A stretch of DNA of 64,000 nt, taken from a virus. The translations under genes and the position numbers were made by a program. Position 1 is the stretch's first letter. Every line of letters starts with the position of its first letter. Of this stretch, positions 37,736-59,850 are shown in pieces. The notes beneath the pieces are model-generated. The model had not been told where the DNA came from and ran no database searches. It saw only the letters and a program-made list of their open reading frames with translations. The stretch covers positions 1 through 64,000 of the IMG/VR virus record IMGVR_UViG_3300045988_063132; one strand, given 5' to 3'.

Positions 37736-38081
37736 CAGTTTGCAACTTCATTATTTCTTCAGTGGCTGTACTTGCATGTGAATGTAGGTGCAGTCGTCCT
37801 TACTGTGAGAATCAGTGATAAACTTGTGGGGCTCATGTCTTATCAAAAGGGTGGCCAACTTTTAGATAGCATTAGTGCGGACGTTAAAATCAAGTAGATG
37901 ATAAGAATTGTACTGACAATACAATTCTGCTGTATCTTAAAACAAGTTTTGATAGTCAAATTTTCCTAAACCAATCCTCGTTATTAGGTAAAATTTCTTT
38001 TTGTTTACGTATTGCTACAACAATATCCTCACTGTTCATTCGTTATTTGCATTGTAGTTGTAGATACAATGCCGTCATCAA

Positions 38082-38671: not shown

Positions 38672-38854
38672 CATCAAATATTTTTATTATATGGTGGTTA
38701 TCCCCAAGAAAGTGTAAAAGTCCAGAGTCCTAAGACAAATCAAAGCTATATGAAGATATATAGTACGTCGATAAAGTAGTTGGGATATTGTCGAAATAAG
38801 TTAAATGAATAAGACAAACACTTTCTTTTTATTCGCATCTTAAAACAATCAAAT

Positions 38855-40089: not shown

Positions 40090-40406
40090 TGTGCCGACAA
40101 GTACTGTAAAGCTTATCAATTAATATTAGTGTCTTTACATTTGTAGAGACACTAATACTAGTTAGTGCCGAAAGTTATTAAACCGAATGGATTTAGTAGG
40201 TAATTAAGTTGAATTGACAACTTCCCTCAAGTGCTATATGCCGTAGGGTGGAAAAACAACGTGCCACTGATCATGTGCCGAAGATCATTACTATTGTTTT
40301 AGCTATTGTACTTTATGTCCTGCATAAAAACAATAGGCTCTACTTGTAGAGTTTTATAGTAATGGTTATCAAAACACATATAGAAATTGTGCTTTATGCC
40401 GAAGTT
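40090..40406 (+). promoter_or_regulatory. cluster of five TGCCGA(A/C)(A/G) motifs in an ORF-free region
   Basis: gtgccgacaag at 40090, agtgccgaaag at 40164, atgccgtagg at 40238, tgtgccgaaga at 40274 and tatgccgaagtt at 40395. Confidence 0.35.
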
Positions 40407-50872: not shown

Positions 50873-52216
50873 ATGAAAAAAGATATCAAATCTCAAACAA
50901 TTGACAATTCTACCAAAAAATATCCGGTAGAAAGTAAAACATGGAAGTCTGATGTATGTCAGGCTTTGAAATTAGGTTATAAAGTAGAAGCTTTAAATGA
51001 AGAGCAAGCCGAATATATTAAGAAGATTGAAACTAAGCTTGCAGAAAAGGCTGCAAAAGCCAAAGTAAAAGAAGAGATGAAACAAACTCTTCTGAAAAAG
51101 ATGTCAGATATAATGAAAGCTAAGAAAGCAGCAATTATATCTGCAGCCAATGATCTAGCTGATAGAATTATTCTTCGTGCCATTGAGAAAGAAGAGCAGA
51201 AGAAGAAATTCGATGAAACCGACAAGAAAATTAAGGAGAAAGTCAAGAAGGATAAAATGGCAATAGCTGAAAAGAAACGTAAACGTAAAGCAGAATTACG
51301 TAATAAAACTATTCCTAGTCCTGAAGCTATAGCTAATGCTAAGAAACAACAAGATTTTCTTGCAAAAGCTCATGCCGCTAAACGTGAAGAGATTGAAGCT
51401 CGTCTCGATGAGAAAGAAAATTTCATGAATCAATCTGCAGAAGAATGGAGTAAAAAACATGAAGAACGTATTAAACGTAATACGGAACTTGCTCTCAAAC
51501 GATTGCATCACAAAGAGATTAAGCTCAAACGTACTACAAAAGCTGAAAGAATTGAAGCAATTAAAGCTAAGAAAGAAGCTGGTAAAGCAGCTTTCAATGC
51601 TGAAATGAAACGTCAAGCTTCAGAAATTGCAGCAGACCGTCAAGGTTATGCTAATCGCGTAGAGAAACGTAGACGTACTGAAACAGAACGTCTTGCAATG
51701 ATTGCAGAGCGTAGAAAACTACGTAAAGATAAGATTTTTACAGAACATCTTAAACAACAAAAGATTCAGCAATTGAATCTTAAACGTTTTATAGAGTCTG
51801 AAAAAGCTCGTCTAGCACGAAAAGAAGAAAAACGTGCCAAGTATCTTACTACGGGTGGAATAAAAGTTCCCAAAGTAAAGAACAATGTTGCTATAGATAA
51901 AACTAGAGCAGAAGAATATATTAAAGTTGCTGAAACAAAAATGAAAGATGAAAAAGAACGTTATATAATACGTATTGCATCAATTGCTTCATCAGAAATT
52001 GTAAGTGATTCTGTTTGTGCATTCATTTGTAAACCAGAAGAACTTAATAAACGTATGAAAGAAGTTCATAACAAACATATGAAAGAAGAACCCGATACAT
52101 ATGTAGGTATTTATGCTTACTCTGGCATCGGTAAAGATCAGAAATGTGTAAGTGAGATGCTAAACGATAAGTTTAAGGATCGTAGTAGACTTAATCCGAA
52201 AAATGAAGCAGCATAA
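50873..52216 (+). CDS. Lys/Glu-rich coiled-coil protein
   Basis: Start moved to MKKDIK because the track ORF overlaps the tRNA-like element. Highly charged repetitive helical sequence. Confidence 0.5.
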   Translation: MKKDIKSQTIDNSTKKYPVESKTWKSDVCQALKLGYKVEALNEEQAEYIKKIETKLAEKAAKAKVKEEMKQTLLKKMSDIMKAKKAAIISAANDLADRIILRAIEKEEQKKKFDETDKKIKEKVKKDKMAIAEKKRKRKAELRNKTIPSPEAIANAKKQQDFLAKAHAAKREEIEARLDEKENFMNQSAEEWSKKHEERIKRNTELALKRLHHKEIKLKRTTKAERIEAIKAKKEAGKAAFNAEMKRQASEIAADRQGYANRVEKRRRTETERLAMIAERRKLRKDKIFTEHLKQQKIQQLNLKRFIESEKARLARKEEKRAKYLTTGGIKVPKVKNNVAIDKTRAEEYIKVAETKMKDEKERYIIRIASIASSEIVSDSVCAFICKPEELNKRMKEVHNKHMKEEPDTYVGIYAYSGIGKDQKCVSEMLNDKFKDRSRLNPKNEAA

Positions 52217-52250
52217 TATACAACAGGGGTGCGTCTGTAACGCACAATAT

Positions 52251-52322
52251 AGCGGGATGGCGCAAAGGTAGCGCGTAGCTTTCACGAGGCTGAGGTTGGT
52301 AGTTCGAATCTATCTCCCGCAA
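52251..52322 (+). tRNA. tRNA (anticodon read as CAC, Val; isotype uncertain)
   Basis: D-arm gcgc aaaggta gcgc. Anticodon arm tagct ttcacga ggctg. T-arm ggtag ttcgaat ctatc. Acceptor agcggga pairs with tcccgca apart from a 1:72 mismatch. Confidence 0.55.
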
Positions 52323-52340
52323 CTAATTAACCGTAGTACT

Positions 52341-54251
52341 ATGAAAATTAAAGGAAAGACTTGCGTAGTCTTTGATATTGAAGTTTTAAAGAACGTATTT
52401 ACTTGTACTTGTAAGAATACTGAAACAAAACAGATTACAGTATTTGAAATATCTCCAAGAAGAGTAGATATACAAGGATTAGTTACATTCTTTTATGAAG
52501 ATTATTATTTTGTAGGTTATAATAATATACATTATGATAATCCTATACTAAACTATATTATAATGCTATATAATAAACATTATTTTAATAGTTATAGTAC
52601 TAGAGAATTAACTGAATCAATATTTAGAATGAGTCAATTAGTAATTGATAAAAATTCTGATTTTGATTTATGGAAAGAGTATAAATACGCTAGAAACTTC
52701 TTATCAATAGATCTATTAACAATGTTATATTCTAAAGCTTTACGAGTATCTTTAAAAGAGATGCAAGTAACAATGCAATATAAGAATGTAGAAGAATTCG
52801 TAGTAGATTGGCATCAAGATCTTCCTGAAAAGGATATAGATAGATTAATATCATATAATATAAATGATGTAGAATCTACTGAAGAATTACTATATAGATG
52901 CGAAAGTGATCTAAATCTAAGAGTAGCTATTGAAGAAGAATATAAGATAAATTGTCTAAGTTTAGATGGTGTAAATACTGGTATGAAGATTCTTGAACAA
53001 GAATATATTAAACATACTGGTATTTCTAAAGAAAAATTAGAACAATTAAGGAGTCCTTGTGATCAAATAGATCTAGAGAAAGTAATATTTCCCTGGATTG
53101 AATTTGATAGTCCTATATTACAGAATCTATTAAAAGAAATGAAACAACTACATAATGTATCACCAGGAAGAAAAGGATATGAAAATACCTTTATTTTTGG
53201 AGATATGAAAGTAACTGTAGGTGTTGGTGGTATTCATGGAGATCGTGGTATAGAAATTATTAAACCACGAGAAGACGAATTATTATTAGATTCTGACGTT
53301 AGTTCTCTATATCCTAGTATGATTATAGAACATAATTTATATCCACCACATTTAGGTAAAGAATTCTTAGAGACTTACTCTAGTATTCGTACAAGAAGAT
53401 TGAACGCTAAGAAGAATAAGAATAAAGTAGTAGATAAAACACTTAAATTATCATTAAATGGTTTAAGTGGTAACTTACAGAATGAACATTCTTGGTGTTA
53501 TAGCCCATTTACTGTAATGCAAATTAGAATTAATGGACAATTACTACTTTTAAAGCTCTCTGAGAGACTTTTATCCATTGGATGTAAGTTACATCAGATT
53601 AATACTGATGGTGTCTTATATACGTGTAAAAAGACTAAATATGAAGAACTACAAAAGATATTAAAAGAATGGGAAGACTTAACTAAATTAAAATTAGAAA
53701 CGGAAGAGTTTACTCAATTCTATCAATTAGCTATTAACGATTACTTTGGATTATCTCCAGAAGGACACATTAAAGAAAAAGGATATTTCCTTACAGAAAT
53801 TACTTTAGGAAAAGGTTTATCTCCAAAGATAATTCCAGAAGCTATTATTAATTATTTTATACATAATATTCCAGTAGAAGATACTATTAAATTTTGTAAA
53901 GATATACGTAAATTCTTACAAGCTGAAAAGACAGGAAAACAATGGACAGTTGAATATAATGAACAAATTCAACAAAGAACCAATCGTTTTTACGTTAGTA
54001 ATAGTGGATACTATTTATGGAAATGGAAATTAGATGATACTGGTAAGAAGTCTTATCAAATAATGTTAAAAGATCATGGAGTAAGATTACATAATAAATT
54101 TTATTCTGATGAAGATCTTCAATGGAAATACTCTCAAGGAGAGACATTCCAAAGTATTTATGATATAGATTATCAGTATTATATTAATCAATGTATAAAA
54201 GTAATTGAAAAACTAAAACCAAAGCAGTTAAATCTGTTTAATTTTGACTAA
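52341..54251 (+). CDS. family B DNA polymerase with 3'-5' exonuclease
   Basis: Exo I is VVFDIEV and Exo II is YFVGYNNIHYDNPIL. Motif A is DVSSLYPSMII and motif C is QINTDGVLY. Start set at MKIKGK, downstream of the tRNA. Confidence 0.7.
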   Translation: MKIKGKTCVVFDIEVLKNVFTCTCKNTETKQITVFEISPRRVDIQGLVTFFYEDYYFVGYNNIHYDNPILNYIIMLYNKHYFNSYSTRELTESIFRMSQLVIDKNSDFDLWKEYKYARNFLSIDLLTMLYSKALRVSLKEMQVTMQYKNVEEFVVDWHQDLPEKDIDRLISYNINDVESTEELLYRCESDLNLRVAIEEEYKINCLSLDGVNTGMKILEQEYIKHTGISKEKLEQLRSPCDQIDLEKVIFPWIEFDSPILQNLLKEMKQLHNVSPGRKGYENTFIFGDMKVTVGVGGIHGDRGIEIIKPREDELLLDSDVSSLYPSMIIEHNLYPPHLGKEFLETYSSIRTRRLNAKKNKNKVVDKTLKLSLNGLSGNLQNEHSWCYSPFTVMQIRINGQLLLLKLSERLLSIGCKLHQINTDGVLYTCKKTKYEELQKILKEWEDLTKLKLETEEFTQFYQLAINDYFGLSPEGHIKEKGYFLTEITLGKGLSPKIIPEAIINYFIHNIPVEDTIKFCKDIRKFLQAEKTGKQWTVEYNEQIQQRTNRFYVSNSGYYLWKWKLDDTGKKSYQIMLKDHGVRLHNKFYSDEDLQWKYSQGETFQSIYDIDYQYYINQCIKVIEKLKPKQLNLFNFD

Positions 54252-54302: not shown

Positions 54303-54863
54303 ATGATACTAGAAATAGATACAAGTCTATTAAAAAAGATAGACAATCTTTCATTAAGTCAGCTAGTATTTTTAAATCTTGTATTAGACAATAATCAAAA
54401 ATCTATCAAAGAGGTCAAAGACATCGTTAGCCAGGTCAGCGACAATGATATACAAGATTTAATCAACAGAGGATTTCTTATTAGAGAAGAAAAAGCTAAA
54501 AAAGTTTCTTATAAAGAAACTGAACTATTAGTAAATATTATTACTGGTAATGCAGATTTATTTGAAGAATTTAAGAAGCATTATCCTATAGTAGTAATAA
54601 GACCTGATGGTACTAAAGGCTTTTTACAAGGTAATTCAAAGAAATGTAGAACTTTATATAATAAGATCATTAAAAATGATATTATTTTACATAATCATAT
54701 TATTCAATGTTTGGAGAAAGAAGTATCTGACAAACTTATGAGTGGTAAAATAGGTTATATGAAGACTATGTGGAAATGGCTTACTAACTCTGAATGGGAA
54801 ATTTATGAAGAACAAATTAATGAACCAATAAAAGATAATCTCTATGGAACAGAACTTATCTAG
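54303..54863 (+). CDS. hypothetical replication-associated protein
   Basis: 186-aa ORF between the polymerase and the helicase. Confidence 0.4.
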   Translation: MILEIDTSLLKKIDNLSLSQLVFLNLVLDNNQKSIKEVKDIVSQVSDNDIQDLINRGFLIREEKAKKVSYKETELLVNIITGNADLFEEFKKHYPIVVIRPDGTKGFLQGNSKKCRTLYNKIIKNDIILHNHIIQCLEKEVSDKLMSGKIGYMKTMWKWLTNSEWEIYEEQINEPIKDNLYGTELI

Positions 54864-55800
54864 TCCCTTACCATTTAAACATATATCTGTGGCTGCTGAT
54901 GAAGCGGTTACCTATATAAAACAGCGTAAGAATCATGAAATTGAACCACTCAAAAGTAGGTGGAATAAATTCAATTTTATGTGCTGTGGTGGTATTGAAC
55001 CAGGATGCGTTTATACTATAGTAGGTGCTTCTGGTACTGGTAAATCATCATTTGTAAATACGCTTGAAACTGACTTAATTGAACTTAATCCTGATAAGGA
55101 ATTAGTTGTATTATCATTTTCTTTTGAAATGCTCTCTAGTAGACAAGTAGGAAGAAAGCTATCTAATAAGTTGCGTCACACAACTTCAGAGCTGTATAGT
55201 GCATCAGAAGATGTTTCTGATAGTTTACTACAGGATATTGAAAAAGAAGTAGAAGTTATTAAACAATATCCCATCTACTATGTAGATGAATCAGCTACAG
55301 TAAGTAAGATAGAAGATACTATAACTTATTTTCAAAATACGATTGCAAAAGATAAATGGCTTATCGTATTTCTAGATCATACATTATTGGTCGAAGGAAA
55401 TGATACTAATGATGAGCGTAAAATTATAGCTGCATTAGAAAGAGTATTTATTAGAGCTAAGAAAGTTGGTAAAACAAGTATAATTCAACTTTCTCAAATG
55501 AATCGTAATATTGAAATGCCTGAAAGGATTATAAATCCATCAAGTCATTATCCTATGAGAAGTGACTTATCATCCTCAGATTCTGTATTTCAAGGTAGTG
55601 ATGTTATAGCAGTTTTATCAAGACCTGAAACATTAGGTATTACTGCATACGGACCGTCACGATTACCTGTACAAAATAAAGTATATCTACACTTTTTAAA
55701 AGTTAGAGAAGGCAAATTAGCCATACTTGAATATGAGAACGATCTGCAATATAACAACTTAATTGAAGTAGATAGATCTGAGAATAAACCACAGTATTAA
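54844..55800 (+). CDS. DnaB-like replicative helicase (RecA-fold)
   Basis: Walker A TIVGASGTGKSSF. Walker-B-like LIVFLDHTLL. Arginine-finger region SQMNRN. Confidence 0.6.
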   Translation: MEQNLSSPLPFKHISVAADEAVTYIKQRKNHEIEPLKSRWNKFNFMCCGGIEPGCVYTIVGASGTGKSSFVNTLETDLIELNPDKELVVLSFSFEMLSSRQVGRKLSNKLRHTTSELYSASEDVSDSLLQDIEKEVEVIKQYPIYYVDESATVSKIEDTITYFQNTIAKDKWLIVFLDHTLLVEGNDTNDERKIIAALERVFIRAKKVGKTSIIQLSQMNRNIEMPERIINPSSHYPMRSDLSSSDSVFQGSDVIAVLSRPETLGITAYGPSRLPVQNKVYLHFLKVREGKLAILEYENDLQYNNLIEVDRSENKPQY

Positions 55801-56424: not shown

Positions 56425-56742
56425 ATGATAGTATTACCTACAGAAAAAGTAAAAGCAAAAGTAAATAATCCTAGATTTTTGATTATTTACGGTCGACCTA
56501 AAACTGGTAAAACTAGTTGTGTAGCAGCTCTAGAGAATAATTTAATTATTGATCTAGAAGGTGGCTCTGAATTCTTAGATGCATTAGCAGTACAAGCAAG
56601 AACTGTTAATGATTTCGCTGAAATTGCAAATGCAATCAGAGAAAAGATCAAAGAAACAGGCAAAAAGCCCTATAAGTATATTACTATAGATAATGCTACA
56701 CGACTAGAAGAAATATGTCTATCTTACGCAGGTACGCTCTAA
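56425..56742 (+). CDS. Sak4-like AAA_24 ATPase, N-terminal segment (exon 1?)
   Basis: FLIIYGRPKTGKTS (Walker A) and ITIDNATRLEEI. The ORF stops after 105 aa, before any Walker B. Confidence 0.55.
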   Translation: MIVLPTEKVKAKVNNPRFLIIYGRPKTGKTSCVAALENNLIIDLEGGSEFLDALAVQARTVNDFAEIANAIREKIKETGKKPYKYITIDNATRLEEICLSYAGTL

Positions 56743-57535
56743 ATTTATGGAGCGCTATTTAGTAATGAATAGTGTAAAAGCTTTCTAATTTCTGGAACAT
56801 TTTACCTTTAAGTACGTTAAAGATACATTTAAAGTAAAAGGTAAAACAATCAGAAGCGAAGCAATGAAAGAAAAAACATTAAATAAATATATTGGTAAAA
56901 CTCATGGTGTATTAACTGTTATAGATTTAGACCATGAAACTTATGATAAAGAAAAACAAAGAAAACGAACTTATTTTAAATGCAAATGTAATAAATGTGG
57001 TAATATAACTATAGTAAGATCAGATAAATTAACTACTAAATATTGGATACCAAAGTGTTGTAATAATTGTGTCAATCAACAACAACACGAAACGGCAATA
57101 AAATTACATGAAAACGGTATTCCTAGTTATTTTAAAAAAAGAATTAGTTCTATTAAAGGAAATGCAAAAAGTAGAAATATAAATATGCAATTAACTAATA
57201 ATGAAATTTATAACATTATTCAAAAACCATGTTTCTATTGTAAAGAAAAAGAAGCATATGGAATAGATAGAATTGATTCTACAAAAGATTATACTATAGA
57301 TAATTGTGTACCTTGTTGTTTTATTTGCAATCGTATAAAAAATAAATATTCAATAGGTGTTTTTCTAGATAAAATAAGTAAAATATATAATAATTTTTTC
57401 ATTGAACGTTCAACGACTATCCCGAAAGGGAGTACATTACAAGCTAATGGTAATGGAAACGGAAGCATTCCTACTATTAATTAATAGGGAATATGATATA
57501 GTCTAATCTATATGGTGACATATAGCAGTTCATAA
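56743..57535 (+). mobile_element. intervening sequence with an HNH homing endonuclease (putative group I intron)
   Basis: Separates the two halves of one ATPase fold. Contains the HNH ORF 56864..57484. Confidence 0.5.
56864..57484 (+). CDS. HNH homing endonuclease
   Basis: Contains CKCNKCGN, YCKEKEAYGIDRIDSTKDYTIDNCVPCCFICNRIKNKYS. Confidence 0.65.
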   Translation: MKEKTLNKYIGKTHGVLTVIDLDHETYDKEKQRKRTYFKCKCNKCGNITIVRSDKLTTKYWIPKCCNNCVNQQQHETAIKLHENGIPSYFKKRISSIKGNAKSRNINMQLTNNEIYNIIQKPCFYCKEKEAYGIDRIDSTKDYTIDNCVPCCFICNRIKNKYSIGVFLDKISKIYNNFFIERSTTIPKGSTLQANGNGNGSIPTIN

Positions 57536-58003
57536 GAGAACGTATACAAATTTGCGAATTGTATAGAATATAATGATAAAGCTCAACCTCAAGGAAAATC
57601 TTGGCAAGGTACTGATGTTAGATTGCTTCCACAAGGAGCAGGATATCAATATATTAGACTTGCTGTAAGAAAAGTTATCGATATGTTTAAAGAACTTACT
57701 GATAACTTAATTCTTATTGGTCATACTAAGGATAAAATGATTAATAAGAATGGTGAGGATATGACAGAAATGTCCTTAGATCTTGTAGGTAAACTAGGAG
57801 ATATTATATGTGGAGAAGCTGATGCAGTAGGTTTTATGTATCGAAAAGGTAATGAAACAATTATTAATTTCGATAGTAAAGATGAAACTACAAAAGGAGC
57901 AAGAGCACCACATTTGCGTGAGCAAAAAATAGTAATTGCAGAAAGCAATGAAAACAATGAATTAGTATTTCATTGGGACAGAATTTATTTACCAGAAGTT
58001 TAA
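57536..58003 (+). CDS. Sak4-like AAA_24 ATPase, C-terminal segment (exon 2?)
   Basis: The frame is open from 57536, giving ENVYKFANCIEYNDKAQPQGKSW... before the track TTG start at 57623. Contains LILIGHTKDK (Walker B-like) and ICGEADAVGFMYRK, which are typical of AAA_24. Confidence 0.55.
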   Translation, partial: ENVYKFANCIEYNDKAQPQGKSWQGTDVRLLPQGAGYQYIRLAVRKVIDMFKELTDNLILIGHTKDKMINKNGEDMTEMSLDLVGKLGDIICGEADAVGFMYRKGNETIINFDSKDETTKGARAPHLREQKIVIAESNENNELVFHWDRIYLPEV

Positions 58004-58023
58004 GTTAACCAAAATTAAAGAGT

Positions 58024-58635
58024 ATGTATAGTTCCGAAAGAGCCAAGACTATTGTAAAGAAAGACGTAGCACACTTGTCAGCAGGTATTGAAGATAACGT
58101 AATGTTAACTGCAGTAAGATTTGATAAATCTATTAATGGTAATAGTTTTATTGAATTTAAGTTTGAAAAAGAAGGTAAATTGCTGACGCATACTGAGTGG
58201 GAACCTTCTAAGAGATCTGATGAAACTGAAGAAAGTTTTCAGAATAAATGTGATAATCAATTTTCAAGAATTGAACAAATTTTGAAATGTTATTATCCTA
58301 ATGCTGAAGATCGTAAATTTATCGGTGAAAACTTCACTCAGTTTGCTCAATGGGTAACAGAAATGCTGAATAAAGCAGATTTGACTACGCCATTAAGAGT
58401 TAAAATTGTATACAATAATAGTGGTTATACTACATTACCAAAGTATGCAAAGTATACGTTTATTGAACCAATGTCTTTGGTAAACGAAAATAAATCTGTT
58501 ATTGTAAAATTAGGTATCGATCAATTCGAGAAGCCTATTGTAGCAGATTTAGAAAAATCTAATCCAAGTCCTTTCTCTATGGGAAGTTCTATGGATGAAA
58601 ATAACAGCGCCGATCCTAATGGATTGCCGTTTTAA
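58024..58635 (+). CDS. putative single-stranded DNA-binding protein
   Basis: 203 aa with an acidic tail ending in the SSB-like tip motif DENNSADPNGLPF. Located next to the Sak4-like gene. Confidence 0.4.
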   Translation: MYSSERAKTIVKKDVAHLSAGIEDNVMLTAVRFDKSINGNSFIEFKFEKEGKLLTHTEWEPSKRSDETEESFQNKCDNQFSRIEQILKCYYPNAEDRKFIGENFTQFAQWVTEMLNKADLTTPLRVKIVYNNSGYTTLPKYAKYTFIEPMSLVNENKSVIVKLGIDQFEKPIVADLEKSNPSPFSMGSSMDENNSADPNGLPF

Positions 58636-58751
58636 GATATAATTCTATTTGCGCAATAGAACGAAGACTATACTACCTCTGACTTTTGTCATGTAAGTAT
58701 ACCAGATCGTAGGCTGGCACTGACCACACAGGGGGTATTGTTAAAGGTGGA

Positions 58752-58866
58752 GAAGAGTAAGCACATATTTCTTTAATATAAGAAATGAGCAGATGTGTGA
58801 ATGGGCCTAATACAAATGCTAACTAGCATGTATTTAAATGGGGCGGTTCGAGTCCGCCACTCTTCA
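58752..58866 (+). ncRNA. over-long tRNA-like element (~115 nt)
   Basis: T-arm ggcgg ttcgagt ccgcc followed by actcttc. A perfectly complementary gaagagt lies ~107 nt upstream. There is an internal hairpin, atttctt pairing with aagaaat. Confidence 0.3.
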
Positions 58867-58887
58867 CTTTATTTAAATCTATATCAT

Positions 58888-59850
58888 ATGTATGACTCTA
58901 CAAAAATAAAACAGCAAGATACTCCAATTACTTTGGATTATATCTTATCAAAAGTCACAGAATATGATATTTACGCTCGATATATTGGACAATTTAAGAT
59001 TGGTTTTATTTATAATAGTCCATTTAGACAGGATAAAAATCCTTCATTTGGAATATTCAGAAGTAAAAAATCAGGCAAATTACTTTTCAAAGATCATGGA
59101 AATGGTGAATGTGGTGATGTTATTAAATTTGTAGAGATTTATACAGGTCTAACAAATTATAATGATATATTACAACGAATTGTAACTGATTTATCTATTA
59201 CAAATAATACTAAGCTTAAAAGTACCAAGTACTATGAATCTAAAGATACCATAATAGGTGTAGTTAGACAAGAATGGACAGATATAGATAAACAATTCTG
59301 GTCACAATTTGGTATTAGTAAAGATACATTAAATAAATATAATGTATCTAGTATTAAATATTATTTATGTGACGGAATTGTTAAGGGCATATATAAGGAT
59401 GAAAATCCTATGTATGCTTATAAAGTATATGATCATTTCAAGATTTATAGACCTTTAGCAGATAAATATACTAAATGGCGTAATAATTTAACTGAGAATG
59501 ATATTCAAGGTTATGAACAATTACCTAAAACTGGTGATTTATTAATTATTACTAAATCTTTAAAAGACGTAATGGTTCTTTATGAAATGGGATACAATGC
59601 TATATCACCATCATCAGAAAGTACTTTTATTCCAGATAAAGCTTTAAAGCAACTTAAGAAACGATTTAAACGTATTTTAATTTGTTTTGATAGAGATATT
59701 CCTGGAGTTAAGAATATGCGTAAAATAAGCCTTAAAACAGGCTTAAATGGATTCTTAGTACATAAGAAATTCCATAGTAAAGATATATCAGATGCTGTTA
59801 AGAATAATAGCTTTGATATAATTAAAAACTGGTTAAAAGAAATATTATGA
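58888..59850 (+). CDS. DnaG-like DNA primase (degenerate zinc-finger region plus TOPRIM)
   Basis: SPFRQDKNPSFGIF and DHGNGECGDVIKF are zinc-binding-domain-like. The TOPRIM domain is GDLLIITKSLKDVMVLYEMGYNAIS with ILICFDRDIPG. Start moved to MYDSTK. Confidence 0.6.
   Translation: MYDSTKIKQQDTPITLDYILSKVTEYDIYARYIGQFKIGFIYNSPFRQDKNPSFGIFRSKKSGKLLFKDHGNGECGDVIKFVEIYTGLTNYNDILQRIVTDLSITNNTKLKSTKYYESKDTIIGVVRQEWTDIDKQFWSQFGISKDTLNKYNVSSIKYYLCDGIVKGIYKDENPMYAYKVYDHFKIYRPLADKYTKWRNNLTENDIQGYEQLPKTGDLLIITKSLKDVMVLYEMGYNAISPSSESTFIPDKALKQLKKRFKRILICFDRDIPGVKNMRKISLKTGLNGFLVHKKFHSKDISDAVKNNSFDIIKNWLKEIL

What the first reader, a model, noticed from the sequence alone, without database searches (positions are those of the whole stretch)
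58752..58866. Over-long tRNA-like element 2 upstream of the primase gene
The architecture matches the 50.7-kb element. The T-arm ggcgg ttcgagt ccgcc is followed by actcttc, and the perfectly complementary gaagagt lies ~107 nt upstream with an extra 7-bp internal hairpin. Two independent loci with this unusual geometry make coincidence unlikely, a rough estimate of under 1% per locus for a 7-mer match within 120 nt.
Basis: seen in the sequence. Interest (0 to 1): 0.55.

Follow-up and report, generated by a model that had tools for sequence, protein, structure and literature searches.

The report
tRNA-like element upstream of phage primase
A 115-base element just before the primase gene of a human-gut crAss-like phage keeps the acceptor stem and T-arm of a tRNA but has no anticodon. 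Related phages fill the same slot with real tRNAs or other tRNA look-alikes, so it most likely marks where host tRNA-processing enzymes cut the phage message; that function is inferred, not shown.

Summary
At 58752-58866 (+), a 7-bp acceptor stem (GAAGAGT/ACTCTTC) stacks on a canonical T-arm (GGCGG-TTCGAGT-CCGCC), followed by discriminator A. The element ends 21 nt before the primase ATG at 58888.

It is not a decoding tRNA. ARAGORN and Rfam do not call it, no arm has a 7-nt anticodon loop, and removing any single segment does not restore a tRNA.

It is a conserved structured RNA. All four helices stay paired in relatives, with compensatory changes. A tRNA-shaped element ends 14-24 nt before the primase ATG in most relatives across four Suoliviridae subfamilies. 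At least 15 unrelated acceptor sequences occur there, and real tRNAs (Met, Arg, Lys, Leu) fill the slot in some phages.

The DNA polymerase gene shows the same pattern. This window has tRNA-Val 18 nt upstream, and relatives have look-alikes. Element bodies swap as cassettes between 94-100% identical flanks.

Best reading (inferred, not shown): a phage counterpart of plant-mitochondrial "t-elements", meaning tRNA-derived signals for RNase P and RNase Z that cut the replication-module transcript. I found no phage report. I rate it a new variant of a known kind, of moderately high interest.

The parts
58752..58758 (+). Acceptor stem, 5' strand (GAAGAGT)
   Evidence: Pairs with 58859-58865. 100% paired in 12 family members, with an AU->GC double change at pair 3. 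RNAalifold predicts it independently.
58761..58798 (+). Arm 1 (D-arm position). Stem GCACA 58761-58765 / TGTGT 58794-58798 encloses an expansion hairpin at 58767-58786.
   Evidence: The stem is kept in all 12 family members. The enclosed segment is an insertion hot spot holding 0, 13, 20, 54 or 62 extra nt in relatives.
58799..58805 (+). Invariant single-stranded junction GAATGGG
   Evidence: GTGTGAATGG is invariant across the family, including the divergent L044 type. A role in a tertiary (elbow) contact is speculation.
58806..58841 (+). Arm 2 (anticodon/variable-arm position). Closed by CC 58806-58807 / GG 58840-58841. Inner helix 58809-58834 carries the 4-nt loop AACT. There is no 7-nt anticodon loop.
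   Evidence: Supported. One compensatory change (UA->CG) occurs in L027. In the L044 type a short hairpin (AGGT-TTAT-ACCT) replaces it between the same CC/GG.
58842..58858 (+). T-arm: GGCGG / TTCGAGT / CCGCC, with a G53:C61-type closing pair and a T-loop matching the tRNA consensus
   Evidence: Seen. Two of five pairs show double-sided changes (GC->AU in 5 sequences, CG->UA in 1) and none is broken.
58859..58866 (+). Acceptor stem 3' strand (ACTCTTC) plus discriminator A at 58866. No CCA is encoded; the next bases are CTT.
   Evidence: Nearly all tRNAs and tRNA-like elements in these slots are followed by A|C(A/T)A.
58867..58887 (+). 21-nt A/T-rich spacer between the element and the primase start. 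Predicted to be the 5' leader of the processed primase mRNA.
   Evidence: The spacing is 14-24 nt in all relatives that carry an element, whatever its class. Processing itself is inferred.
58888..59850 (+). DnaG-type DNA primase CDS (320 aa)
   Evidence: Pfam Zn_ribbon_DnaG/Toprim and PHROG 12622. The start matches the cr55_1 annotation.
58643..58750 (+). Structured 5' domain between the upstream gene's stop codon (58633-58635) and the element.
- P1: 58643-58649 / 58655-58661.
- Variable hairpin closed by 58670-58673 / 58697-58700.
- P3: 58702-58705 / 58714-58717.
- Small stem: 58720-58722 / 58729-58731.
- Candidate pseudoknot: CCAC 58724-58727 with GTGG 58747-58750.
   Evidence: 98.8% of cells are paired and 8 of 15 pairs show double-sided changes in 11 sequences. 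0 of 500 shuffles reached the observed value on four of the five measures; the count of further standard pair types was not above the shuffles. Every convincing match (about 47 of 51) lies upstream of this primase slot; four others look like chance hits inside unrelated sequence. The pseudoknot strand is not established, since L140 weakens it.
50709..50829 (+). Element 1: a second, non-homologous tRNA-like element, 43 nt before the ATG (50873) of a 447-aa protein.
- Acceptor/T stack: 50709-50716 with 50821-50828.
- T-arm: GGGG-TTCGAAT-CCCC.
- Stem GTTATTTT / AAAATAAC holds a hypervariable insert.
   Evidence: About four mutually unrelated inserts occur in relatives whose flanking protein is 84-98% identical (most 89-98%). 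A paired C->T / G->A change occurs in L091 and L094.
52251..52323 (+). Genuine tRNA-Val(CAC) in the equivalent slot, 18 nt before the DNA polymerase ATG (52341)
   Evidence: ARAGORN and Rfam. In relatives the same slot holds tRNA-like elements, tRNA-Arg or tRNA-Ser.

Best explanation
The element is a tRNA-derived, non-decoding tRNA-like structure. It is transcribed as part of the rightward replication-module message of a crAss-like phage (Suoliviridae).

It keeps what tRNA end-processing enzymes recognise: a 7-bp acceptor stem stacked on a 5-bp T-stem, a consensus T-loop, a discriminator base and no encoded CCA. It has lost the anticodon.

Proposed mechanism (inferred, not shown):
1. Host RNase P cuts at its 5' end (before G58752). 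This leaves the upstream mRNA ending in the structured 5' domain.
2. RNase Z or an equivalent 3' activity cuts after A58866. This releases a primase mRNA with a short, unstructured leader of about 21 nt.

Real tRNAs in the same slots, here tRNA-Val before the polymerase gene, would do the same job while also decoding. The phage would thus use tRNAs and tRNA look-alikes interchangeably as punctuation, as mitochondria do.
For: Shown:
1. tRNA top-half geometry is present and the helices are conserved with compensatory changes.
2. Slot conservation. A T-arm plus acceptor element ends 14-24 nt before the primase ATG in 44 of 62 distinct upstream regions by the scan (52 elements are listed). Control offsets mostly gave 0-3 of 60. 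The same pattern occurs in 49 of 52 regions upstream of the polymerase gene.
3. At least 15 unrelated acceptor sequences occur, each with its own complement, across four Suoliviridae subfamilies.
4. ARAGORN-called tRNAs (Met, Arg, Lys, Leu; Val, Arg, Ser) occupy the same slots in other phages.
5. Anticodon arms are lost or reduced to 3-4-nt loops, while the acceptor and T-arm are kept.
6. In a polymerase-slot family that is 96% identical overall, substitutions concentrate in paired acceptor and T-stem positions and keep the pairing.
7. Element bodies swap between 94-100% identical flanks, with breakpoints at the first base and the discriminator.
8. All elements lie on the coding strand.
9. Pfam found no phage-encoded tRNA-processing enzyme among about 37 ORFs scanned on the rightward side of the window (34-64 kb), which points to host enzymes.

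From established knowledge:
- RNase P cleaves tRNA-like and minihelix substrates, phage C4 and M3 RNAs, and polycistronic mRNAs (PMC11143913).
- Plant-mitochondrial t-elements with a conserved GGTTCRANYCC arm direct RNase P and RNase Z cleavage that forms mRNA ends, alongside real tRNAs upstream of genes (PMC1920247).
Against: - No RNA-end data are available, so cleavage is inferred only.
- The host, and whether it has RNase Z, are unknown.
- A short constant spacer could simply be the minimum room needed for ribosome binding.
- Some relatives lack any element in the slot (L058, L070, L074, L075, L079, cr118_1, and L163/L165 for the polymerase). It is therefore dispensable, or something else replaces it.
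- Element 1 lies 43 nt, not about 20 nt, from its gene.
- U8 and a canonical D-loop are absent, so cleavage efficiency by RNase P is uncertain.
- The hypervariable inserts are not explained by a pure processing role.
Confidence: 0.55

Rival explanations
1. The released tRNA-like RNA is itself the functional product. It would be a stable small RNA acting in trans, for example as a decoy for host tRNA-binding defence nucleases, toxins or modification enzymes. Alternatively it could be a natural 'tRNA scaffold' that stabilises the variable arms as a payload. Cutting the mRNA would then be a side effect.
For: - Hypervariable inserts sit at fixed positions in both window elements among near-identical phages.
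- Whole cassettes are swapped.
- Acceptor-stem positions 1-3 and 7 change fastest in the polymerase-slot family, which could reflect an arms race.
- Tandem elements occur in L015, L044 and cr10_1.
Against: - The most common variant is a 47-nt mini element with no payload arm.
- The position relative to the start codon is tightly kept, which a trans-acting RNA would not need.
- Real tRNAs substitute in the slot.
- No target or partner was identified.
Confidence: 0.2
2. It is a cis-regulatory structure for primase expression that stays attached to the mRNA. Together with the 5' domain it would act as a translational operator, standby site or insulator, or would sense a tRNA-binding factor.
For: - The 5' domain is conserved, covarying and specific to this locus.
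- The spacing to the ATG is constant.
- An SD-like AAAGGTGGAG may be sequestered in the candidate pseudoknot.
Against: - The same kind of element precedes unrelated genes (the polymerase and the 447-aa protein) with different 5' flanks.
- Element bodies are freely exchanged for unrelated ones and for real tRNAs, which are certainly excised.
- No ligand or protein candidate was found.
Confidence: 0.12
3. It is a decaying tRNA pseudogene in an insertion hot spot for tRNA genes and has no function of its own.
For: - Real tRNAs occupy the slot in relatives.
- One variant (L013) still has a canonical D-arm and can be forced into a tRNA-Leu with a 29-nt 'intron'.
- Some phages lack any element.
Against: - Compensatory substitutions keep every helix paired: 100% and 99.3% of cells.
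- Decay would not repeatedly spare the acceptor and T-arm while removing only the anticodon arm in more than 15 independent classes.
- The elements persist across subfamilies.
Confidence: 0.07
4. It is a functional decoding tRNA (or tmRNA-like RNA) of unusual shape or with a small intron, or a DNA-level site (attP, replication origin).
For: - The T-arm and acceptor stem are perfect.
- Gut phages do carry unusual suppressor tRNAs.
- The element sits in the replication module.
Against: - No anticodon loop. ARAGORN with introns and in tmRNA mode, Rfam at E<=10 and brute-force deletions are all negative.
- No G3:U70 pair and no shared identity elements.
- No exact match of the 3' half in 185,579 species genomes, so there is no host tRNA to serve as attB.
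- The orientation is always the coding strand, and covariation shows selection at the RNA level.
Confidence: 0.04

Closest known systems
Plant-mitochondrial t-elements and the mitochondrial tRNA-punctuation model (Forner et al. 2007, PMC1920247)
   Same: - tRNA-derived, non-canonical cloverleaves that keep a near-perfect GGTTCRANYCC T-arm and an acceptor stem.
- They lie in the transcribed strand next to mRNA ends.
- Real tRNAs do the same job upstream of other genes.
- They are proposed or shown to be RNase P and RNase Z signals.
   Different: - Here the setting is a bacteriophage genome relying on bacterial enzymes.
- The elements sit at a fixed 14-24 nt from start codons.
- They are exchanged as cassettes and carry hypervariable inserts.
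- Processing has not been shown.
mascRNA / MALAT1 and MEN-beta tRNA-like 3' elements (Rfam RF01684)
   Same: - A tRNA-like fold without a decoding anticodon, embedded in a longer transcript.
- It is cleaved by RNase P and RNase Z to define the ends of the flanking RNA.
   Different: - Those elements are eukaryotic nuclear RNAs.
- There is no sequence relationship: only a 13-bit partial hit of the element 1 T-arm and none for element 2.
Non-tRNA RNase P substrates of phages and bacteria: P1/P7 C4 antisense RNA, phi80 M3 RNA, polycistronic operon mRNAs (PMC11143913)
   Same: Phage or operon transcripts that host RNase P cuts at tRNA-like or minihelix-like structures.
   Different: - Those are single cases without a full acceptor/T-arm cloverleaf.
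- They do not form a positionally conserved family interchangeable with tRNAs.
Theta (HDV-like) ribozymes next to tRNAs in gut phages (PMC10879173)
   Same: - Gut Caudoviricetes phages.
- RNA-level devices that trim tRNA-containing phage transcripts.
- This window also carries a hatchet ribozyme and RAGATH RNAs.
   Different: - Theta ribozymes are self-cleaving RNAs placed right after real tRNAs.
- Here there is no room for a ribozyme (21-nt spacer), and the tRNA-shaped part itself is the non-decoding element.
tRNA-like structures of plant RNA viruses (TYMV type) with an upstream pseudoknot domain
   Same: - A viral tRNA mimic preceded by a structured, possibly pseudoknotted domain.
- It is an RNase P substrate in vitro.
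   Different: - Those sit at the genome 3' end, have a pseudoknotted acceptor arm, end in CCA and are aminoacylated.
- This one is internal, has an ordinary acceptor helix and encodes no CCA.

Membership tests
Canonical tRNA (Rfam RF00005 / ARAGORN) | Detected by tRNA covariance or heuristic models | tested here: not met
   ARAGORN calls only tRNA-Lys and tRNA-Val in the window. RF00005 gives no hit at the element even at E<=10; the best clan hit is tRNA-Sec at 14.4 bits against a gathering score of 47.
Canonical tRNA (Rfam RF00005 / ARAGORN) | Anticodon arm with a 5-bp stem and a 7-nt loop | tested here: not met
   Arm 2 is a long irregular helix with a 4-nt loop. A short hairpin with a 4-nt loop replaces it in the L044 type.
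Canonical tRNA (Rfam RF00005 / ARAGORN) | 7-bp acceptor stem stacked on a 5-bp T-stem, T-loop TTCRANY, discriminator base | tested here: met
   Seen and conserved with compensatory changes.
Intron-containing tRNA | Removing one contiguous insert restores a cloverleaf with an anticodon | tested here: not met
   ARAGORN -i finds nothing. Of all single deletions of 10-69 nt, one variant gives an uninterpretable 4-base 'anticodon' for element 2, and none gives anything for element 1. No group I intron hit at the site.
tmRNA / tmRNA-like | tRNA-like domain with G3:U70, a tag ORF and pseudoknots, about 300 nt or more | tested here: not met
   ARAGORN tmRNA mode is negative. Pair 3:70 is A:U. The element is only 115 nt.
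t-element / tRNA-punctuation type processing signal | Non-decoding tRNA-like fold with a conserved T-arm and acceptor stem in the transcribed strand, adjacent to genes | tested here: met
t-element / tRNA-punctuation type processing signal | Interchangeable with genuine tRNAs at equivalent positions | tested here: met
   tRNA-Met, Arg, Lys and Leu occur in the primase slot. tRNA-Val, Arg and Ser occur in the polymerase slot.
t-element / tRNA-punctuation type processing signal | Transcript ends coincide with the element's 5' and 3' ends; cleavage by RNase P and RNase Z; non-templated C/CCA added | not testable with these tools
   No RNA-end or transcriptome data are available here.
Viral 3'-terminal TLS (TYMV / BMV / TMV types) | Located at the genome or transcript 3' end, pseudoknotted acceptor arm, CCA end, aminoacylatable | tested here: not met
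   The element is internal, has a plain acceptor helix and encodes no CCA. Aminoacylation cannot be tested here.
Phage attachment site derived from a tRNA 3' half | The identical 3' half is present in a host tRNA gene | tested here: not met
   The 24-nt T-arm/acceptor string has no exact match in one genome from each of 185,579 species. Its own 5' strand is present and covaries.
Any described RNA family (Rfam 15) | Score at or above a family's gathering threshold | tested here: not met
   No hit for 58400-59100 or 50600-50900 beyond chance-level scores.

The most novel reading that the evidence does not exclude
Suoliviridae crAss-like phages punctuate their replication-gene transcripts with swappable tRNA-shaped cassettes. 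The excised tRNA-like RNAs, whose arms and acceptor stems diversify rapidly, also act in trans. They might be decoys against host tRNA-targeting defences, or natural tRNA-scaffolded small RNAs. That would make this a new class of phage non-coding RNA rather than only a processing signal.
Probability: 0.15. Interest if true: 0.85.

Novelty: new variant of a known kind. Interest (0 to 1): 0.62.

Why it matters
crAss-like phages are among the most abundant viruses of the human gut, yet how their long one-directional gene blocks are turned into individual messages is largely unknown.

- **A new role for phage tRNA genes.** A conserved slot just upstream of the primase and polymerase genes is filled interchangeably by real tRNAs and by anticodon-less look-alikes. 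This suggests the phages use the host's tRNA-maturation enzymes to cut their mRNAs. Some phage 'tRNA genes' may then be kept for their shape as well as for decoding.
- **Annotation.** These elements are unannotated in the RefSeq records examined.
- **Testability.** The idea gives a directly testable prediction about transcript ends.
- **An open puzzle.** Cassette exchange occurs exactly at the ends of the RNA body, and fixed positions inside it carry hypervariable inserts. Neither is explained.

Tried and rejected
- **Standard predictors.** ARAGORN (default, intron, tmRNA and lowered-threshold modes) and Rfam (gathering and E<=10) give no credible call.
  - The low-threshold ARAGORN and tRNA-Sec frame starting near 58787-58791 uses a poorly paired alternative acceptor.
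  - The L044-type covariation contradicts that frame, so I rejected it.
- **Intron hypothesis.** Brute-force single deletions recover no tRNA.
  - Across 130 distinct slot sequences, allowing introns adds only one weak call: L013 as tRNA-Leu with a 29-nt insert.
- **Theta/HDV-like or other ribozyme in the flanks.** No Rfam hit. The 21-nt spacer is too short, and theta ribozymes lie 3' of tRNAs.
- **attP or host-tRNA origin.** No exact match in the species genome collection.
- **Phage-encoded tRNA-processing enzymes.** Pfam on about 37 ORFs on the rightward side of the window (34-64 kb) found none.
- **Sigma-70 promoter and intrinsic terminator scan of 57900-59100.** Nothing near the element. 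The scan does not model Bacteroidota promoters.
- **Homology between elements 1 and 2.** The covariance model of element 2 does not hit element 1.
- **Literature.** Searches for tRNA-like elements in crAss phages, RNase P with crAss-like phages, and tRNA punctuation in phages found no description. One 2026 preprint that mentions 'tRNA-like' together with Crassvirales could not be opened.
- **Pseudoknot in the 5' domain.** The second strand (CCAC/GTGG) is plausible but not proven, because L140 weakens it.

Full report
**Source and setting.**
The window is a crAss-like phage of the family Suoliviridae (Boorivirinae). It is about 93% identical to phage cr55_1 over the primase region. From about 34 kb to 63.5 kb the called ORFs are predominantly on the + strand.

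The finding lies in the replication module:

| Gene | Coordinates |
|---|---|
| DNA polymerase | 52341-54251 |
| DnaB-type helicase | 54844-55800 |
| HNH endonuclease | 56864-57484 |
| 203-aa protein of unknown function | 58024-58635 |
| DnaG-type primase | 58888-59850 |

**Observation.**
- GAAGAGT at 58752-58758.
- T-arm GGCGG-TTCGAGT-CCGCC at 58842-58858.
- ACTCTTC at 58859-58865.
- Discriminator A at 58866.
- A 7-bp internal hairpin at 58767-58786.

The element ends 21 nt before the primase ATG.

In one sequence the motif is only mildly improbable. A scan for T-arm plus 7-bp acceptor gave 0.5 hits per dinucleotide shuffle of the window. The case therefore rests on comparison with relatives.

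**It is not a tRNA.**
- ARAGORN and Rfam call tRNA-Lys (41902-41972) and tRNA-Val (52251-52323) but nothing here, even at E<=10.
- Intron and tmRNA modes are negative.
- Deleting every possible single segment of 10-69 nt recovers no tRNA from either window element.
- Both my structure and an independent RNAalifold prediction give a four-way junction: the acceptor stem, arm 1 (GCACA/TGTGT) with an expansion hairpin, an invariant single-stranded GAATGG, arm 2 closed by CC/GG and ending in a 4-nt loop, and the T-arm.
- No arm carries a 7-nt anticodon loop.

**It is a conserved RNA structure.**
In 12 distinct family members all 300 pair cells form standard pairs. Four pairs show changes on both sides, including two in the T-stem. 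None of 500 shuffles reached the observed pairing or covariation score.

A covariance model built from this alignment finds exactly one site in the window. It also finds strong homologues only upstream of primase in relatives, including cr10_1, where the T-stem is AGAGG/CCTCT. It does not find element 1.

Between GCACATA and AGCAGATGTGT, relatives carry 0, 13, 20, 54 or 62 extra bases.

**The slot matters more than the sequence.**
I fetched 80 primase homologues at 52-98% protein identity.
- **Frequency.** A T-arm with a paired 7-nt acceptor ends 14-24 nt before the primase ATG in most of the distinct upstream regions. The scan found it in 44 of 62, and one search lists 52 elements.
- **Controls.** The same scan at most other offsets gave 0-3 of about 60. 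Two offsets gave 17 of 60, which probably reflects a shared coding-sequence match; I did not inspect it. One offset gave 8 of 69.
- **Diversity.** The elements fall into at least 15 unrelated classes, each with its own complementary acceptor strands.
  - One is a 47-nt 'mini' element (GCAATGT...ACATTGC) with no anticodon-position arm at all.
  - L053 has a 5-bp stem with a 3-nt loop in the anticodon position.
  - L015, L044 and cr10_1 carry tandem elements.
- **Real tRNAs.** In L056 (Met), L072 (Arg), L082 (Lys) and L055 (Leu), ARAGORN calls genuine tRNAs in the same slot.
- **Range.** The pattern extends to Loutivirinae, Uncouvirinae and Oafivirinae.
- **Exceptions.** A few phages have nothing there.

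**Same rule at other genes.**
- **Polymerase slot.** In this window tRNA-Val ends 18 nt before the polymerase ATG.
  - Among 52 distinct polymerase upstream regions, 49 have a tRNA or a tRNA look-alike in that position.
  - One look-alike family is 96% identical overall. Its substitutions fall mainly in acceptor and T-stem pairs and preserve the pairing.
- **Element 1.** Element 1 (50709-50829) lies 43 nt before a 447-aa gene.
  - It has a stem (GTTATTTT/AAAATAAC) that holds about four mutually unrelated inserts among close relatives.
- **3' flank.** All tRNAs and look-alikes are followed by A|C(A/T)A, and none encodes CCA.

**Flanks.**
The 108 nt between the upstream stop codon and the element form a separate structured domain, with 8 of 15 pairs covarying. 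It may end in a pseudoknot. Every convincing match to it lies in this one slot.

The polymerase slot has its own conserved hairpin or pseudoknot candidate just 5' of the tRNA.

Element bodies are replaced as cassettes. L012, L013 and L030 share 94-100% identical flanks with the window yet have unrelated bodies. The breakpoints lie at the first base and at the discriminator.

**Interpretation.**
The features kept are those that tRNA end-processing enzymes read. The feature lost is the one needed for decoding. Real tRNAs, which must be excised from the same transcript, are interchangeable with the look-alikes.

The simplest explanation is that these elements are processing signals:
1. RNase P cuts at the 5' end, leaving the upstream mRNA capped by a stable 3' structure.
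2. A 3' endonuclease cuts after the discriminator, leaving a short leader on the downstream gene.

This is what plant-mitochondrial t-elements and the tRNA-punctuation model describe (PMC1920247). It is also consistent with known non-tRNA substrates of bacterial RNase P (PMC11143913).

All processing steps are inferred. No transcript-end data were available.

**Alternatives.** These are a trans-acting stable RNA, a cis regulator of primase, a pseudogene, an odd tRNA, or a DNA site. Each is weighed under the rival explanations.
- The pseudogene, tRNA and DNA-site readings are disfavoured by covariation, the negative predictor tests and the absence of any host match.
- The trans-acting reading remains open. 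It is the only one that would explain the hypervariable inserts.

**Novelty.**
Nothing in Rfam matches. The RefSeq records examined annotate no feature at these sites. Full-text searches found no description of tRNA-like elements or tRNA punctuation in crAss-like or other phages. One recent preprint could not be read.

The concept is known from organelles and from mascRNA. I therefore rate this as a new variant of a known kind: well supported as a structure, plausible but untested as a mechanism.

Noticed in passing
window 46375-48819: A 2.4-kb stretch has no ORF of 65 aa or more in any frame, and all three stop codons are frequent. It is 99% identical in phages cr1_1 and cr55_1 and has no Rfam match at E<=1. 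It could be a large non-coding RNA or an origin region.
   Followed up: partly
window 58643-58750: A structured RNA domain lies immediately 5' of the element. It has four covarying helices and a candidate H-type pseudoknot ending in an SD-like AAAGGTGGAG. Every convincing match is in this primase slot.
   Followed up: yes
window 52223-52245: A conserved hairpin or H-type pseudoknot candidate (ACAG-GG-GTGCGT-CTGT-A-ACGCAC) lies just 5' of tRNA-Val. It is kept, with a compensatory change, in relatives whether a tRNA or a look-alike follows.
   Followed up: partly
window 56425-58003: An AAA_24/Sak4-like gene appears split. The N-terminal part is 56425-56742 and the C-terminal part is 57623-58003, with an HNH/endonuclease VII ORF (56864-57484) between them. 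The gene is intact in cr55_1. This suggests a mobile intron or homing-endonuclease insertion, although Rfam found no intron there.
   Followed up: partly
window 37796-37895, 38694-38828, 40094-40273, 40927-41171: Several other RNAs lie upstream of tRNA-Lys: a hatchet ribozyme, a RAGATH-9-like RNA (below gathering score), a RAGATH-22 RNA and a group I intron overlapping an HNH ORF on the opposite strand. The phage is unusually rich in RNA-processing devices.
   Followed up: no
window 43556-44122: An ORF with sigma-70 regions 2 and 4 (ECF-type sigma factor) suggests the phage redirects host RNA polymerase for part of its programme.
   Followed up: no
L012, L013, L015, L030 versus window 58636-59190: tRNA-like bodies are exchanged as cassettes between 94-100% identical flanks, with breakpoints exactly at the first base and the discriminator. 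L015 carries two elements in tandem.
   Followed up: partly
window 50830, 52324, 58867, 41973 and related loci: Every tRNA and tRNA-like element is followed by discriminator A and then C(A/T)A, which resembles CCA with the middle C replaced. None encodes CCA.
   Followed up: no
L013 1192-1311 (approx.): One primase-slot variant keeps a canonical D-arm (GCTC-AGCTGGGTTA-GAGC) and a long variable arm. ARAGORN calls it tRNA-Leu(AAG) only if a 29-nt 'intron' is allowed. It may be an intermediate between a class II tRNA and the look-alikes.
   Followed up: partly
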